Below, one piece after another: positions 32,976-38,027 of a stretch of 64,000 nt of DNA. This DNA comes from a virus. Taxonomy: Duplodnaviria; Caudoviricetes. Under the pieces are notes generated by a model. That model had not been told where the DNA came from and did no database searches. It saw only the letters and a program-made list of their open reading frames with translations. The DNA is taken from IMG/VR virus record IMGVR_UViG_3300025849_003344; one strand, given 5' to 3'. Every line of letters starts with the position of its first letter. Position 1 is the first letter of the stretch. The position numbers and the translations under genes are program-made.

Positions 32976-33560
32976 ATGAGCAATATATTTAATCAATTAG
33001 AAATCGAAGCATTTCGTGCAGGCATTACGCCCCGGACCAAGGAATCAATTAAATGGTTCCAGAAAAAAGCCGGAGCAATGGGTAAGGTTAAACGTAGTGA
33101 GTTGATGAACGAAGATCCGATCAAGCTGAGAAATCGGCATGGCGTTGGACAAATGTATATGTACTTCTATGATCCTAAGCATAAAGCTACTCTGCCTTAT
33201 TATGATACCTTTCCTTTGACTATTGTTATTGGTCCGGCCAAAGGTGGATTTATGGGTTTGAACCTGCATTATCTACCACCTCCGCTGCGTGCAAGGATGC
33301 TAGATGGGCTTATGGGAATAACAAACAACAAGAAGTACGATCAGTCAACTAAGTTTGCAGTATCATACGAACTATTACAAAAAACATCGAAGCTTAAATG
33401 GTATAAACCATGTGTAAAACATTATCTTGGCTCTCAGGTAAGAAGTAGGTTTGCACATGTACCCGCACCTGAGTGGGAAATTGCTACGTTCTTACCGACC
33501 GCAGACTTCCAGAAGTCAAGCAAAGCAAATGTTTATAAAGCTTCACGGAGTATGATCTAA
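32976..33560 (+). CDS. gp2: DNA end protector protein gp2
   Basis: MYMYFYDPKHKATLPYYDTFPL...GFMGLNLHYLPP..R. Confidence 0.93.
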   Translation: MSNIFNQLEIEAFRAGITPRTKESIKWFQKKAGAMGKVKRSELMNEDPIKLRNRHGVGQMYMYFYDPKHKATLPYYDTFPLTIVIGPAKGGFMGLNLHYLPPPLRARMLDGLMGITNNKKYDQSTKFAVSYELLQKTSKLKWYKPCVKHYLGSQVRSRFAHVPAPEWEIATFLPTADFQKSSKANVYKASRSMI

Positions 33561-34141
33561 TGTCATTTTCAGTAGACGAATTTAAAGGTGCTATCAGTAA
33601 GGGTATTGCGGTACCTAATATGTTCCGTGTGTACTTACCTGCCTTACCAGGTGTTGTGACCACTCGTCAATTGAATTTACTATGTAAAGATGTACAGCTT
33701 CCGGGCAGACAGATATTAACTAACGAACGTGTCATTGGAATGAAGCAAGTCAAGCAAGCTTATGGCTATGCATCAGAAGATGTGAGTCTGACATTCTATG
33801 TAACTAACGACTATGGCCTGCGTCAATATTTTGAGAAATGGCAAGATCTTATTATAACAGATAAGGAACTGAATTACCCGGATGAGTATGGGTTTGAAGT
33901 ACGAATAGAGCAACTGCAAAAGGGTGCAGCGCTCGACTTACCGGTAGATATTAACTTCAATCTATTTGGTTTAAACATCGATATAGACTTTGATTTATTC
34001 AAAGACGCAAAGAGTATATACACGTGTGTACTTGACAAGGCATTCCCTACCACCATGAATGCTATTCAACTGAATAATGAGCAAGGTGGGCTCGTTGAAT
34101 TGAACGTACAATTGTCCTATAAGGACTGGAGATCAGTATAA
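33560..34141 (+). CDS. gp54: Tail-tube initiator gp54 / gp19-family protein
   Basis: NMFRVYLP, LLCKDVQLPGRQI, FEKWQDLI, AFPTTMNAIQL...ELNVQLSYKDW. Confidence 0.75.
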   Translation: MSFSVDEFKGAISKGIAVPNMFRVYLPALPGVVTTRQLNLLCKDVQLPGRQILTNERVIGMKQVKQAYGYASEDVSLTFYVTNDYGLRQYFEKWQDLIITDKELNYPDEYGFEVRIEQLQKGAALDLPVDINFNLFGLNIDIDFDLFKDAKSIYTCVLDKAFPTTMNAIQLNNEQGGLVELNVQLSYKDWRSV

Positions 34142-34142
34142 A

Positions 34143-34853
34143 ATGGCTTTACCTAAATTAAACTCTACACCAAAATACGATATTACCATACCGTCGACAC
34201 AACAAGCTGTCCGCTTTAGACCTTATCTTGTAAAAGAAGAGAAGGTTCTGATGCTTGCGATGGAGTCACAGGACCAAAAACAATCACTTGCTGCAATCGT
34301 AGATACTATTGTTGCGTGTGTTAGCGAAGATATTGAGCGCACAAAGCTTACGACGTTTGATGTTGAATATATGTTCACACAGATTAGATCTAAGTCAGTA
34401 GGCGAAACATCTAAGGTGTCTATCAAATGCAAAGAGTGCGATCACGCCAATGAGGTTGTGATTCCGCTCGAATCAATTAAAATTGATATGCCTGAGAATG
34501 TCATCAGTCTGATAGAACTAACTGATGAAATCTCGGTACAACTAAAATGGCCAACATATTCTGATCTAGGCGATCTTGACATGGCCGATGGAGCAAGTCA
34601 GGTTACTCAAACCTTTGACATGATTGCTAAGTGTATTGACTCAGTTCTTACTGGTGATGAACGCATTAGTATGAAAGATGAACCAAAACAAGAAGTCATG
34701 GACTTCATTGAATCACTCACATCTGAGCAGTTTGATAAGATCCGTGAGTATGTTGAGCTGATGCCTAAACTAAAACACGATGTGGAGTTTACATGTGTAT
34801 CATGCAGTGACACAAATAAAATTACCTTGGAGGGTATGAACGATTTTTTCTAA
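34143..34853 (+). CDS. gp26: Baseplate hub assembly chaperone gp26
   Basis: MALPKLNSTPKYDITIPST...RFRPYLVKEEKVL, FDVEYMFTQIRSKSVGE, CxxC motifs, LEGMNDFF. Confidence 0.92.
   Translation: MALPKLNSTPKYDITIPSTQQAVRFRPYLVKEEKVLMLAMESQDQKQSLAAIVDTIVACVSEDIERTKLTTFDVEYMFTQIRSKSVGETSKVSIKCKECDHANEVVIPLESIKIDMPENVISLIELTDEISVQLKWPTYSDLGDLDMADGASQVTQTFDMIAKCIDSVLTGDERISMKDEPKQEVMDFIESLTSEQFDKIREYVELMPKLKHDVEFTCVSCSDTNKITLEGMNDFF
34829..34850 (+). promoter_or_regulatory. Candidate -1 ribosomal frameshift signal (internal SD GGAGG, 10 nt, then T TTT TTC)
   Basis: Slippery heptamer 34844-34850 directly precedes the gp26 stop; the -1 frame is open and gp51-like. Confidence 0.6.
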
Positions 34854-35041
34854 TAGCCCTTTCTCACGAATCTCTGATCGGATACTTTAAGACGAATTTC
34901 TCCCTGATGCAACATCATCATTATTCATTAACCGAAATAGAAGAGATGATACCATGGGAAAGGGAGGTATATTTAACAATGCTCATTGAACATATAAAAG
35001 AAGAAAATGAACGAGCCAAGGAACAGCAAAGTAAAAGATAA
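34844..35041 (+). CDS. gp51: gp51-like baseplate hub assembly catalyst (-1 frame relative to gp26; not in the ORF track)
   Basis: FFLIALSHESLIGYFKTNFSLMQHHHYSLTEIEEMIPWEREVYLTMLIEHIKEENERAKEQQSKR*; first ATG only at 34907; stop overlaps the tape measure ATG. Confidence 0.85.
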   Translation, partial: FFLIALSHESLIGYFKTNFSLMQHHHYSLTEIEEMIPWEREVYLTMLIEHIKEENERAKEQQSKR

Positions 35042-37131
35042 TGGCTGATAAAATAACACTGTCTGACTTAAAAGACGAAATTGCAAAAGGTAATAAAGCG
35101 CAGTCAAATACGACTGACGCTATTATGAAGCTTAATTCTACTTTTGCAAAGCAGTTTAAATTGCAGGCACGTGGTGCTGGTGACAGACTAGAAGATAAGC
35201 TAGAAGGATCTAAAACTCCTAAGGTCGTACAAAAAGAAATGACTGGCTTTAAGCCTCTTGACAATGCTAGCGGTAATATCAATGCTTTTTTTGGTAGACT
35301 TGCTAACATCGGAAAAATGCTTGCAGGCTTTACGGCAGGCCTTGCTGCTGTAGCTGCTGCATTTGCGGGCATGCGTGGATGGGAACTTCCTATTCTAAAA
35401 CGAATTAGTAATATTAAGTTTGACAATTTGTTTCCGGAGTCATTATCCAAAACCCTTAATCAAAAATTTCTAAATGTTCGGGCACGTGTATTAAGATTTT
35501 TTAATATGAGTGCGGTTCTTCCTAAGGGTGAAGATGGCAAACAGATCACATCTATTGGTGGGCAAATAGCTAATGCATTTAAGAATGCCAAAGCAAGCAT
35601 ACTCAAAGGATTTGGTATCGGCATTGATGGAAAGCTTATTGCTTTGCAGGGCGAAGATGGTAAATTTAAGTCTCCAAGGATAGGCAGATTCCTTATCCAG
35701 ATGAAATCGCTGTTTAGTCCTATCACTAAAACCTCGGCTGCGATTGGTGAATTCTTTACGAGTGGTTTTGGATCAAAGATAGTTACCTTTATGAAGGGTG
35801 GAGCAACAAAACTTTTAGCAGTATTTGGTAAAATACTTTGGCCTATCGGTGTTCTGGTGTCAGCCTTCAAAGGTGTCACAGACTTTATTGGCACCGAAGG
35901 AACGCTATATGAAAAGTTTACGGCCGGTATTAGTACTGCACTTGCAGACTTCATTGGCGCACCGCTAAACCTTTTAAAGGATCTGATGGCATGGGGTCTA
36001 AAGAAGCTTGGCTTTGATGAAGGCGCCGAATGGCTAAAAGGTATTGACTTTGTTAAACCAATAAAAGATATGATTACTAATGTCATGGAATGGTTCGGTA
36101 CGCTGTTCACAAATCCTGTAGAAGCATTAAAGCAATTATGGACAACACTTCTTGATGGCGTGGCCAGCCTAGGTATGTGGATATATGATAATACTATAAA
36201 ACCAGTGTTTGATTATTTTACTGGTATATTCAAGTGGTCTGTAGACGGTGTAACAAAGGTTACTGATAGCATCGCAACTATAGTAGGAGATATGGTAACC
36301 GGCGCATGGGATTATGTCAAAAAGCTATTTGTATTTGATGAGGGTGTCGAAGGCATTATTGCATCACTAATCAATGTGACGACAATCGTACCTAACCTTG
36401 TCAAAGACGCAATCTTAGGTATTACATCATGGCTAGCCAGCAAACTAGGGTTTAATAAAGAAGCCGAAGAGCTTTCTAAATGGAAAGACTATAGTATAGG
36501 TGATCTTGCTGTAATGGCATTTAACGGCGTTAAAAATTGGTTATCAAGTAAGTTTAGTAGTGAGGTTAATCTAGGCGGACTGTCATTTAGCCTGTCTGAT
36601 ATAGTCACAGCTCTTAGTGATAACATTGGCCTGATGAAGGATATTTTAGTAGCACAGATATCATTCAGTGTTAAAAGGTTGGTTAACGGATTTAAGGCAA
36701 GCTTCGAAAGGGCTGCTAACTTCATAGCAAATCTTGGTGATGAAATATACTTAATGATCTCTAAGAATTTCCGATTTAAACTTCCTGAAATTAATATTCC
36801 TGAAACATTTCTTACACCGGCGTTTAATCTTATCCCAGCAATTGATGTAGGTGTAGGTGATGCAGGCACTAGAGCTGCAGCCCAAACTCGTATTGATAAT
36901 AGGGACACCGAAAGCGCTTCAAGAGTCAATAAGCTACAGAGTGAAACTGGCAATGAATTAGCAAATCTTCAGTCATTGCAAGCTCAGCTAGCATCAAATT
37001 TACAATCGGTTGTTGTTAATAATAATACAACTAATACTGCAAACAATAATTCTTCTAGTGCTAACTCCACAAACTTAAATGGGACCGCCTCTGCAGGCGA
37101 TCCCTTTGCTCTTATGCCAGGGGCATTTTAA
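35041..37131 (+). CDS. Tape measure / gp29-like protein (696 aa)
   Basis: Helical, with periodic W/F repeats and an N/S-rich tail (VVVNNNTTN); follows gp26/gp51. Confidence 0.7.
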   Translation: MADKITLSDLKDEIAKGNKAQSNTTDAIMKLNSTFAKQFKLQARGAGDRLEDKLEGSKTPKVVQKEMTGFKPLDNASGNINAFFGRLANIGKMLAGFTAGLAAVAAAFAGMRGWELPILKRISNIKFDNLFPESLSKTLNQKFLNVRARVLRFFNMSAVLPKGEDGKQITSIGGQIANAFKNAKASILKGFGIGIDGKLIALQGEDGKFKSPRIGRFLIQMKSLFSPITKTSAAIGEFFTSGFGSKIVTFMKGGATKLLAVFGKILWPIGVLVSAFKGVTDFIGTEGTLYEKFTAGISTALADFIGAPLNLLKDLMAWGLKKLGFDEGAEWLKGIDFVKPIKDMITNVMEWFGTLFTNPVEALKQLWTTLLDGVASLGMWIYDNTIKPVFDYFTGIFKWSVDGVTKVTDSIATIVGDMVTGAWDYVKKLFVFDEGVEGIIASLINVTTIVPNLVKDAILGITSWLASKLGFNKEAEELSKWKDYSIGDLAVMAFNGVKNWLSSKFSSEVNLGGLSFSLSDIVTALSDNIGLMKDILVAQISFSVKRLVNGFKASFERAANFIANLGDEIYLMISKNFRFKLPEINIPETFLTPAFNLIPAIDVGVGDAGTRAAAQTRIDNRDTESASRVNKLQSETGNELANLQSLQAQLASNLQSVVVNNNTTNTANNNSSSANSTNLNGTASAGDPFALMPGAF

Positions 37132-38027
37132 TCGTCTTGAGCAAGCTTGGCAAAGTATGATAGTGTGTCATCATCATTTGATTTCTCACTAATAGACTCT
37201 GCCGTTACCGGAGCATTAATCATTGGATCAGGTGCTGGCTCATTCATTTGAGCAGCCTGGGCCAATGACTGCTGACCGGCATCTGCAGATTCACCAAGAA
37301 CTTTCATAAGCTTGGCTTTAAGCTCAGCATATGTTTTATAATTCTTAGGATCTTCAAACTCTGCTAGATCGTACATACCATTATATAGAGCTTCAAGCTT
37401 ATCCTCATCGCTAGAGATAGCTGCAGGAGAAGCAAACTCAGACTTATCGTAATTACGATAGCCTTCAACGTTACGAATCTTAAGTTTAAAGTCTGCACCT
37501 TCCCACATATCAAACGGATTTGTAGGAGTTTCGTCCGCAAACTCTGGCTGCATCATATCCATGATTTTGTCATGGATTTTCTTACCATACTGATACAAGA
37601 AGGTTTTGCCTTCACGCTCAGGATTAGCAGGATCTGATACAATTAGAATATTTGAGACATAGTGTAACCGACGCTTTTGTTGGCGTGCAGTTCCTTTATC
37701 CTCTTCGATACCTGTATTCCATAACTTGGAATTCAATTCACCGACAGGATCTGTTTGGCCAATTGATGTAAGAGACCGTTCGATGTACCATTGGCCAGTT
37801 GGGCCTTTAAAACCGTGATCCCAATACCGAACCCAAGGAAGTTCTTGGCCTTCACCGGCTGGAAGGAAACGTAGGACAGCATAGCCGTTGCCGGCTTTAT
37901 CTACTGTTGGTTTCCAGATACGATCATCACCGTAGCTTTTCTTTTCTCCACCACCGCCAGCAGTTTCGGCTGCTTGGATGAGTTTAGAGATTGAGCTTTT
38001 ATTTCGTTTTAGTTCTGCAAAAGACAT
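37128..38027 (-). CDS. gp32: Single-stranded DNA-binding protein gp32
   Basis: DDRIWKPTVDKAGNGYAVLRFLP, WDHGFKGPTGQWYIE, GADFKLKIR, acidic tail ending YFAKLAQDD. Confidence 0.97.
   Translation of the reverse strand: MSFAELKRNKSSISKLIQAAETAGGGGEKKSYGDDRIWKPTVDKAGNGYAVLRFLPAGEGQELPWVRYWDHGFKGPTGQWYIERSLTSIGQTDPVGELNSKLWNTGIEEDKGTARQQKRRLHYVSNILIVSDPANPEREGKTFLYQYGKKIHDKIMDMMQPEFADETPTNPFDMWEGADFKLKIRNVEGYRNYDKSEFASPAAISSDEDKLEALYNGMYDLAEFEDPKNYKTYAELKAKLMKVLGESADAGQQSLAQAAQMNEPAPDPMINAPVTAESISEKSNDDDTLSYFAKLAQDD

What the first reader, a model, noticed from the sequence alone, without database searches (positions are those of the whole stretch)
34829..35041. Probable programmed -1 frameshift fusing gp26 to gp51, like a tail-assembly-chaperone G/GT pair in a T4-like phage
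Seen: gp26 ends GAT TTT TTC TAA TAG. The heptamer T TTT TTC is a canonical X XXY YYZ site with GGAGG 10 nt upstream. The -1 frame reads FFLIALSHESLIGYFKTNFSLMQHHH..., and its gp51-like N-terminal part has no ATG/GTG/TTG until 34907. The tape measure gene follows immediately (TAATG). Known: an internal SD about 10 nt upstream stimulates -1 shifting (dnaX, IS911), and lambda-type G/GT chaperones frameshift just before the tape measure gene; in T4 itself gp26 and gp51 are separate genes. Inference: this phage makes gp26 and a gp26-51 fusion at a fixed ratio.
Basis: partly seen in the sequence, partly recalled or inferred. Interest (0 to 1): 0.75.

Follow-up and report, generated by a model that had tools for sequence, protein, structure and literature searches.

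The report
Frameshift joining gp26 to gp51 tail
One tail-assembly gene of this uncultured marine T4-like phage very probably makes a short and a long protein because some ribosomes slip back one base at a conserved TTTTTTC run; the site looks real and strongly conserved, but a 2022 paper appears to have already described this arrangement in T4-like phages.

Summary
Observation confirmed. The gp26-family gene (34143-34853, Pfam PF12322, E 1.6e-62) ends GAT TTT TTC TAA. GGAGG lies 10 nt upstream. The -1 frame stays open to 35041 with no ATG/GTG/TTG before 34907, and its stop overlaps the start of a probable tape measure gene (TAATG).

The heptamer alone is not rare in the window (29 copies, about 21 expected). 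Its conservation is what counts:
- All 85 junctions compared, plus five distant T4-like phages, carry an in-frame T TTT TTN at the end of gp26.
- A 0-frame stop follows at once in 48 of 55 unique junctions.
- The gp51-like extension is always in the -1 frame.
- Codon-periodic conservation switches frame exactly at the heptamer.
- T4 gp51 is the same fusion encoded in frame. T4 has two PF12322 genes and no T run; four frameshift-type genomes have one.
- The gp26 N-domain model resembles solved tail assembly chaperones (Z 6.7-8.4).

This is not new. Vladimirov, Gautam and Davidson (Virology 2022) identified the T4-like chaperone genes, and citing papers report poly-T slip sites there. I could not read that paper itself. 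This scan had already found the same site on at least seven other genomes. No experiment was available here.

The parts
33560..34141 (+). Tail-tube-like protein gene (193 aa) directly upstream. Its orthologous position is annotated 'baseplate tail tube initiator' or 'tail tube' in relatives.
   Evidence: phrog_45 'tail tube' 8.9e-33. Pfam PF23849 is weak, 1.3e-4. Neighbour annotations.
34143..34853 (+). gp26-family gene, the short chaperone form (236 aa, 26.8 kDa), 0 frame, stop included.
   Evidence: PF12322 1.6e-62. phrog_150 1.9e-65. T4 gp26 BLASTP 2e-10 over the full length. Model pLDDT 86, with the N-domain resembling solved tail assembly chaperones.
34829..34833 (+). GGAGG, a Shine-Dalgarno-like motif 10 nt upstream of the heptamer. 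Possible local stimulator.
   Evidence: Sequence. GGAGG or AGGAG is present in only 9 of 55 unique relatives, and a 4-nt core in 25 of 55.
34844..34850 (+). Slippery heptamer T TTT TTC, the proposed -1 shift site.
   Evidence: In-frame T TTT TTN in 85 of 85 loci and in five distant phages. Zero entropy at all six T positions. Same heptamer class as the annotated P2 E/E+E' site T TTT TTG.
34851..34853 (+). 0-frame stop TAA immediately 3' of the heptamer. Likely a pause element.
   Evidence: A stop codon directly follows the heptamer in 48 of 55 unique junctions: TAA 26, TAG 21, TGA 1.
34850..35041 (+). -1 frame extension: 63 codons plus stop. It encodes the domain homologous to the C-terminus of T4 gp51.
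   Evidence: phrog_634 'baseplate hub assembly catalyst' 1.1e-28, and the C-terminal part of phrog_150. T4 gp51 residues 200-244 align at 8e-6. 1037 representative proteins at E<=1e-3. 581 phage records by tblastn.
34143..35041 (+). Composite long form: 299 aa, 34.5 kDa, made by one -1 shift at 34844-34850. Junction ...EGMNDFF|LIALSHE...
   Evidence: Inferred. Size.
34907..35041 (+). 44-aa ATG ORF. Public records of relatives annotate this as a separate 'baseplate hub assembly catalyst'; it is probably not an independent gene.
   Evidence: Conservation extends 21 codons upstream of this ATG. ATG is replaced by ATA, ATT, GTA or GTC in 15 of 55. No purine-rich SD precedes it.
35041..37131 (+). 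Probable tape measure protein gene (696 aa). Its start overlaps the extension's stop (TAATG).
   Evidence: phrog_6090 'tail length tape measure protein' 7.7e-6. Nearby genes downstream in the same order are annotated tape measure in Cr30 and phiM12. No significant similarity to T4 gp29 (E 0.67).
37107..37125 (+). Terminator-like hairpin after the tape measure gene. There is none between gp26 and the tape measure gene.

Best explanation
The gene at 34143-34853 encodes the short form of a T4-type tail (baseplate-hub) assembly chaperone. Most ribosomes end at the TAA at 34851.

A minority slip back one base on U UUU UUC, with the two tRNA-Phe re-pairing on UUU UUU. They then read CUA AUA GCC... 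in the -1 frame to the TAA at 35039-35041. This gives a 299-aa long form: the whole of gp26 plus a 63-residue domain equal to the C-terminus of T4 gp51.

The slip is probably helped by the stop codon right after the heptamer, and in this clade perhaps by the GGAGG 10 nt upstream. No downstream RNA structure appears to be involved.

By analogy with lambda G/GT and P2 E/E+E', both forms would coat the tape measure protein encoded immediately downstream, and the extra domain of the long form would recruit hub or tube proteins.

Shown here: the anatomy, its conservation, and the homology. Inferred: the slip itself, its rate and the binding partners.
For: 1. Anatomy is as described.
2. An in-frame T TTT TTN ends gp26 in 85 of 85 loci (55 unique). 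The extension is always in the -1 frame, and tblastn alignments start at the heptamer.
3. The same holds in Vibrio phi-ST2, Sinorhizobium phiM12, Caulobacter Cr30, Pseudomonas pf16 and S-PM2.
4. Third-position variability follows the 0 frame upstream of the heptamer and the -1 frame from just after it, 21 codons before the ATG. The X position is an invariant T.
5. 28 of 55 relatives have no ATG/GTG/TTG before extension codon 21, and codon 22 is ATG in only 40 of 55.
6. T4 gp51 is a PF12322 domain (residues 1-201, 3.9e-52) followed by a C-terminus that aligns to the window's extension from its second residue (8e-6). It is a natural in-frame fusion. Metagenomic in-frame fusions also exist, for example P0243.
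7. Mosig, S-T4, S-PM2 and phi-ST2 each have one PF12322 gene; T4 has two. T4 lacks the T run in both: TTC TTT in gene 26 and a single TTT in gene 51.
8. The gp26 N-domain model matches HK97 tail assembly chaperone 2ob9 (Z 7.1, rmsd 4.1, 85 aligned), YqbN 3klu (Z 6.7) and 3fgx (Z 8.4), with the next hit at 4.8. Foldseek gives 2ob9 probability 0.91.
9. P2's annotated -1 site in E/E+E' is T TTT TTG, directly before its tape measure gene.
10. There is no + strand terminator between gp26 and the tape measure gene.
Against: - There is no protein-level or ribosome-level evidence for this phage or, as far as I could find, for any relative.
- No conserved downstream stem-loop or pseudoknot exists: the alifold consensus is empty, and the window's own downstream 80 nt fold no better than shuffles (z +0.7).
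- The GGAGG is not conserved.
- The host and its ribosomes are unknown.
- The ATG at 34907 is kept in 40 of 55 relatives, so some independent translation of a 44-aa peptide cannot be excluded.
- Ribosomal slippage and RNA polymerase slippage on the T run give the same protein and are not separated by these data.
Confidence: 0.85

Rival explanations
1. Transcriptional slippage. RNA polymerase occasionally adds one U at the T6 run, giving an mRNA in which gp26 and the extension are in one frame. The protein is the same, but the mechanism is not ribosomal.
For: The conserved element is a homopolymeric T run, and it is T7 in 23 of 55 unique relatives. The product would be identical. The title of Vladimirov et al. 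[quoted passage not shown]
Against: From my knowledge of the literature, six T is short for efficient slippage by bacterial RNA polymerase, which usually needs runs of about 8-9 or more. The run is always in X XXY YYZ register, with a stop right after it in 48 of 55, which fits ribosomal pausing. An RNA-library contig (X16, 34776-35106) carries T6 without an indel, but contigs cannot show a minority form.
Confidence: 0.07
2. Independent small gene. The extension is translated on its own from the ATG at 34907 (44 aa), as public records of relatives annotate it, and no fusion is made.
For: An ATG is present at this position in 40 of 55 unique relatives. GenBank and RefSeq records annotate a separate 44-57 aa 'baseplate hub assembly catalyst'.
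Against: Amino-acid conservation and codon periodicity begin 21 codons upstream of the ATG, at the heptamer. The Met is Ile or Val in 15 of 55. No SD-like sequence precedes the ATG. It does not explain the invariant heptamer. T4 carries the domain fused in frame to a gp26-like body.
Confidence: 0.05
3. Termination-reinitiation. Ribosomes finishing gp26 restart at a non-canonical codon overlapping the stop (AUA at 34853), giving a free peptide of about 62 aa.
For: The 0-frame stop always overlaps the conserved Ile/Val codon at extension position 4 (TAATA or TAGTA). Conservation from position 4 onward would be compatible with this.
Against: AUA is a very poor start codon and GUA is not known to be used as one. 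The invariant T6 run and X position are unexplained. In 7 of 55 junctions the stop lies one or more codons further on. T4's in-frame fusion argues that the functional unit is the fused protein.
Confidence: 0.03

Closest known systems
[quoted passage not shown]
   Same: Same gene family (PF12322 plus the gp51 C-terminal domain) and the same short/long logic. Citing papers report that the work describes poly-T slip sites in the short-form genes of T4-like phages, and that some T4-like phages instead carry one short gene and one fused long gene. My own comparison reproduces both points.
   Different: Nothing of substance that I can show. This is an unannotated instance in an uncultured marine phage. 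I could not read the paper itself, so I do not know whether it covers marine or cyanophage lineages, the adjacent stop codon, or the lack of a downstream structure.
Phage P2 E / E+E' (-1 frameshift annotated in RefSeq NC_001895)
   Same: A contractile-tail phage. The heptamer is T TTT TTG, near the end of the short gene. The -1 extension ends by overlapping the tape measure gene T. Fifteen of 55 relatives of the window have exactly T TTT TTG.
   Different: No detectable sequence similarity was looked for or seen. In P2 the 0-frame stop is six codons after the heptamer, whereas here it is immediately adjacent. gp26 is about twice the size of typical chaperones and carries four conserved Cys.
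Phage lambda G / GT and the conserved tail-gene frameshift (Xu, Hendrix and Duda 2004; recalled from memory, cited)
   Same: Gene order is tube-like gene, chaperone with -1 overlap, tape measure gene. A short major form and a long minor form share their N-terminus.
   Different: Lambda's slip site is, from memory, G GGA AAG. The protein families are unrelated in sequence. The T4-type proteins are known as baseplate-hub assembly factors.
T4 gp51 (249 aa) and gp26 (208 aa)
   Same: gp51 is a PF12322 domain plus the C-terminal extension in one frame, which is the architecture predicted for the window's long form. gp26 is the short form.
   Different: In T4 the two forms come from two divergently transcribed paralogous genes without a T run. 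Here there is one gene plus a slip site.
E. coli dnaX -1 frameshift (upstream SD-like element, heptamer, downstream stem-loop; recalled from memory)
   Same: In this window a GGAGG lies 10 nt upstream of the heptamer, which is the dnaX spacing.
   Different: The SD-like element is not conserved among relatives (9 of 55), and no downstream stem-loop is present or conserved.

Membership tests
gp26 family (Pfam PF12322 T4_baseplate; phrog_150) | Full-length match to the family profile above the curated cut-off | tested here: met
   211.5 bits against a cut-off of 24.5, covering profile positions 2-218 of 219. phrog_150 1.9e-65. T4 gp26 BLASTP 2e-10.
gp51 C-terminal domain (phrog_634 'baseplate hub assembly catalyst') | The -1 frame translation matches the family and T4 gp51's C-terminus | tested here: met
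   phrog_634 1.1e-28, profile positions 56-118 of 121. T4 gp51 residues 200-244 align at 8e-6.
Frameshifted tail assembly chaperone pair (lambda G/GT, P2 E/E+E' type) | Located between a tube-type gene and the tape measure gene | tested here: met
   Tube-like gene 33560-34141 (phrog_45). A 696-aa probable tape measure gene starts at 35041 (phrog_6090 7.7e-6). The tape measure assignment is only moderately supported.
Frameshifted tail assembly chaperone pair (lambda G/GT, P2 E/E+E' type) | The downstream ORF overlaps in the -1 frame, lacks its own conserved start, and is conserved as protein from the overlap onward | tested here: met
Frameshifted tail assembly chaperone pair (lambda G/GT, P2 E/E+E' type) | Conserved X XXY YYZ slippery heptamer in the overlap | tested here: met
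   T TTT TTN in 85 of 85 loci and in five distant phages.
Frameshifted tail assembly chaperone pair (lambda G/GT, P2 E/E+E' type) | Chaperone fold shared with solved tail assembly chaperones | tested here: inconclusive
   The N-domain (residues 1-96) has its three best hits at 3fgx (Z 8.4), HK97 chaperone 2ob9 (Z 7.1) and YqbN 3klu (Z 6.7), well above the next at 4.8. Z below 8 can be a common arrangement. The Foldseek E-value is only 0.34, though its probability is 0.91.
Frameshifted tail assembly chaperone pair (lambda G/GT, P2 E/E+E' type) | Two proteins with a common N-terminus are actually made; both are needed for tail assembly and are absent from virions | not testable with these tools
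   Needs proteomics, western blotting or genetics.
dnaX-type stimulated -1 frameshift | Conserved upstream SD-like element and downstream stem-loop | tested here: not met
   GGAGG is present in the window but in only 9 of 55 relatives. No consensus downstream structure exists, and the window's fold has z +0.7.
Transcriptional slippage sites | Long homopolymeric A/T run (typically 8-9 or more for bacterial RNA polymerase, from memory) and heterogeneous transcripts | tested here: inconclusive
   The run is T6 here and T6-T7 in relatives. RNA-library contigs show T6 only, but contigs cannot reveal minority forms.

The most novel reading that the evidence does not exclude
The 2022 paper, which I could not read, may cover only the two-gene solution of T4 and a few slip sites. 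In that case the following would still be unreported and experimentally unproven: a structure-less U UUU UUN slip site with an immediately adjacent stop codon, kept in essentially every non-Tevenvirinae member of the T4 superfamily sampled (cyanophages, pelagiphages, vibriophages, rhizobiophages, pf16, Cr30). It is also mis-annotated as a separate 44-57 aa gene, or left unannotated, in all nine public phage records I inspected.
Probability: 0.15. Interest if true: 0.45.

Novelty: already known. Interest (0 to 1): 0.2.

Why it matters
The finding brings the T4 superfamily under the near-universal rule that long-tailed phages make their tail assembly chaperone in a short and a long form. It also explains why the 'gp51' of cyanophages and marine vibriophages looks only about 20% as long as T4's (Sullivan et al. 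2010, PMC3037559).

The practical value is for annotation. All nine public phage records I inspected list the extension as a tiny separate gene with arbitrary starts, or leave it unannotated. No record I inspected joins it to gp26.

As biology it is not new, and the frameshift itself is still unproven by experiment.

Tried and rejected
- **Downstream RNA stimulator.** Single-sequence folds of nine junctions gave z from -2.4 to +0.8 (window +0.7). RNAalifold over 55 unique junctions gave no consensus pair. Rejected as a conserved element.
- **SD-like stimulator as a general feature.** Rejected: 9 of 55.
- **Tape measure homology to T4 gp29.** BLASTP E 0.67, no support. Pfam and NCBIfam gave nothing for the 696-aa protein.
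- **NCBIfam on gp26 and the extension.** No hits.
- **Own-genome search for a second PF12322 gene.** The assembly is not held, and the nearest record G001 is a 9%-complete fragment without the family. tblastn within the 64-kb window found no second copy.
- **Reads.** Only assembled contigs were available. RNA-library contigs X16 and X15 bridge the heptamer with T6 and no indel. This cannot show or exclude minority U7 transcripts, nor does it prove transcription.
- **Foldseek against PDB with the whole gp26 model.** No hit at E <= 0.001.
- **Primary literature.** Vladimirov et al. 2022 and Christie et al. 2002 are not held. Five full-text searches for gp26/gp51 with frameshift or chaperone terms returned nothing relevant.

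Full report
**What is in the sequence**

The ORF at 34143-34853 (236 aa) is a gp26-family protein. It matches Pfam PF12322 T4_baseplate at 1.6e-62 over the whole profile, phrog_150 'baseplate hub' at 1.9e-65, and T4 gp26 end to end at 2e-10.

It ends GAT TTT TTC TAA TAG. The heptamer T TTT TTC (34844-34850) is in X XXY YYZ register. GGAGG lies at 34829-34833, ten bases upstream.

The -1 frame is closed by TGA and TAA at 34808-34819. It is then open to the TAA at 35039-35041 and has no ATG, GTG or TTG before 34907. That stop overlaps the ATG of a 696-aa ORF as TAATG.

The 65 residues read from the heptamer in the -1 frame match phrog_634 'baseplate hub assembly catalyst' (gp51) at 1.1e-28. They also match the C-terminal end of the phrog_150 profile.

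**Is it more than chance?**

The heptamer alone is not. TTTTTTC occurs 29 times in the window against 21 +/- 4 in shuffles. The case rests on conservation.

I fetched 80 IMG/VR loci encoding gp26 relatives (52-99% identical) and four phage records: Pelagibacter phage Mosig and Synechococcus phages Sf-CH5, S-T4 and S-CAM4. With the window, that gives 85 loci and 55 unique junctions, and all 85 share three features:
- gp26 ends with an in-frame T TTT TTN;
- the gp51-like extension lies in the -1 frame;
- the tblastn alignment to the window's extension begins at residue 1, that is, at the heptamer.

Per-column entropy shows third-position variability in the gp26 frame upstream of the heptamer. 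From a few bases after it, 21 codons ahead of the ATG, the variability follows the -1 frame.

All six T positions are invariant. This includes the X position, which is the wobble base of a variable codon (GAT, AGT, AAT, TCT or GCT).

A 0-frame stop follows the heptamer directly in 48 of 55 junctions. Twenty-eight of 55 have no ATG/GTG/TTG before extension codon 21. The codon aligned with the window's ATG is ATG in only 40 of 55, and ATA, ATT, GTA or GTC in the rest.

Five much more distant T4-like phages show the same design: Vibrio phi-ST2, Sinorhizobium phiM12, Caulobacter Cr30, Pseudomonas pf16 and Synechococcus S-PM2. tblastn with the 65-residue piece finds 581 phage records, and 567 of them cover at least 80% of it.

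**The T4 control**

In T4, genes 26 and 51 are divergently transcribed, so no shift can join them. T4 gp51 (249 aa) has two parts:
- Residues 1-201 form a full PF12322 domain (3.9e-52).
- Residues 200-244 align with the window's -1 extension from its second residue (8e-6).

T4 gp51 is therefore the in-frame equivalent of the predicted long form, and gp26 is the short form.

The T run is absent from both T4 genes: gene 26 ends GAG TTC TTT GAG, and the gene 51 junction is GTG TTT AAG.

Whole-record searches give one PF12322 gene in each of Mosig, S-T4, S-PM2 and phi-ST2, and two in T4. In-frame fusions also occur among metagenomic proteins, for example P0243 (270 aa) with PF12322 followed by the extension.

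This reciprocal pattern is the strongest argument that the fused protein is the functional product. One side has a single gene with a slip site and a -1 extension. The other has two genes, one of them fused in frame, and no slip site.

**Chaperone character**

The AlphaFold model of gp26 was built from 24 sequences (mean pLDDT 86, pTM 0.80). It has an N-terminal domain (about residues 1-96) whose three best matches among 48,161 PDB representatives are:
- 3fgx, Z 8.4;
- the HK97 tail assembly chaperone 2ob9, Z 7.1, rmsd 4.1, 85 residues aligned;
- B. subtilis YqbN 3klu, Z 6.7.

The next hit is at 4.8. Foldseek gives 2ob9 probability 0.91 but an E-value of 0.34. This is suggestive, not decisive.

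Gene order fits. A tube-like gene (phrog_45) lies upstream, and a 696-aa gene with weak tape-measure profile hits (phrog_6090, 7.7e-6) lies downstream. No + strand terminator occurs before 37107.

P2, a contractile-tail phage, has a RefSeq-annotated -1 site in E/E+E' that uses T TTT TTG, just before its tape measure gene.

**Mechanism**

The best reading is ribosomal -1 slippage of two tRNA-Phe on U UUU UUC, probably aided by slow decoding of the adjacent stop.

The GGAGG at dnaX-like spacing may add to this in the window's own clade. It is found in only 9 of 55 unique junctions.

No downstream structure is conserved: RNAalifold returns no pairs, and the window's own fold is no better than shuffles.

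The product would be 299 aa (34.5 kDa), beside the 236-aa (26.8 kDa) short form.

Transcriptional slippage would give the same protein and cannot be excluded. RNA-library contigs bridging the site carry T6, but contigs hide minority forms. The rate of shifting and the partners of the extra domain remain inferences from lambda and P2.

**Novelty**

The PRFect paper (PMC10885494) and the phage Adele paper (PMC12846349) both cite Vladimirov, Gautam and Davidson, Virology 2022. According to these citing papers, that study makes three points:
- it describes poly-T slip sites in their short-form genes;
- it notes that some T4-like phages carry a short gene and a fused long gene instead.

The paper itself is not held, so its exact scope is unknown to me.

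This scan had already reported the same site on at least seven other genomes. Several of those reports said no paper describes it; that statement should be corrected.

Sullivan et al. 2010 had noted that cyanophage gp51 is only about 20% of the T4 length, without explaining it.

None of the nine public phage records I inspected joins the two ORFs.

**Verdict**

The phenomenon is already known, so interest is low.

Noticed in passing
window 34143-34853 (protein residues 96, 99, 218, 221): gp26 has two CxxC pairs. C96 and C99 are invariant, and C218 and C221 are at least 90% conserved in the 24-sequence alignment. Each pair sits in a beta-hairpin at the end of one half of the model, which suggests one zinc site bridging two similar halves. 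The second half (about residues 118-236) was not searched on its own.
   Followed up: partly
L001-L004, L086-L090 (public phage records): The extension is annotated inconsistently. It appears as a 44-57 aa 'baseplate hub assembly catalyst' starting at ATG, at TTG (S-T4), or directly after the gp26 stop, and it is not annotated at all in S-CAM4. No record joins it to gp26.
   Followed up: yes
L048, L064, L075 (IMG/VR loci), about 14-17 codons upstream of the heptamer: In 3 of 55 unique junctions the -1 frame is open for 21 codons upstream and holds ATG or TTG inside the second CxxC codons. Gene callers therefore predict 78-80 aa ORFs; many database proteins match the extension at their residues 15-78. 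In the window this frame is closed by TGA and TAA.
   Followed up: partly
window 34828-34867: In a seawater metagenome (run X7), a different and more abundant contig (866 nt, depth 87) matches only these 40 bases around the heptamer, with four differences. The junction is conserved at the nucleotide level among co-occurring phages.
   Followed up: no
window 37081-37125: Terminator-like hairpins on both strands overlap where the tape measure gene (+) meets the gp32-like single-strand DNA binding protein gene (-, 37128-38027). This looks like a bidirectional terminator between convergent genes.
   Followed up: no
window 35041-37131, C-terminus: The 696-aa tape measure candidate ends ...PGAF. T4 gp29 has PGVF seven residues from its end. 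This may be a conserved C-terminal motif despite no overall similarity, or it may be chance.
   Followed up: no
L087 (phiM12), L088 (Cr30), L001 (Mosig): In these phages one or two extra small ORFs (about 40-140 aa) lie between the extension and the tape measure gene. In the window and in Sf-CH5, S-PM2 and phi-ST2, the tape measure candidate follows directly.
   Followed up: no
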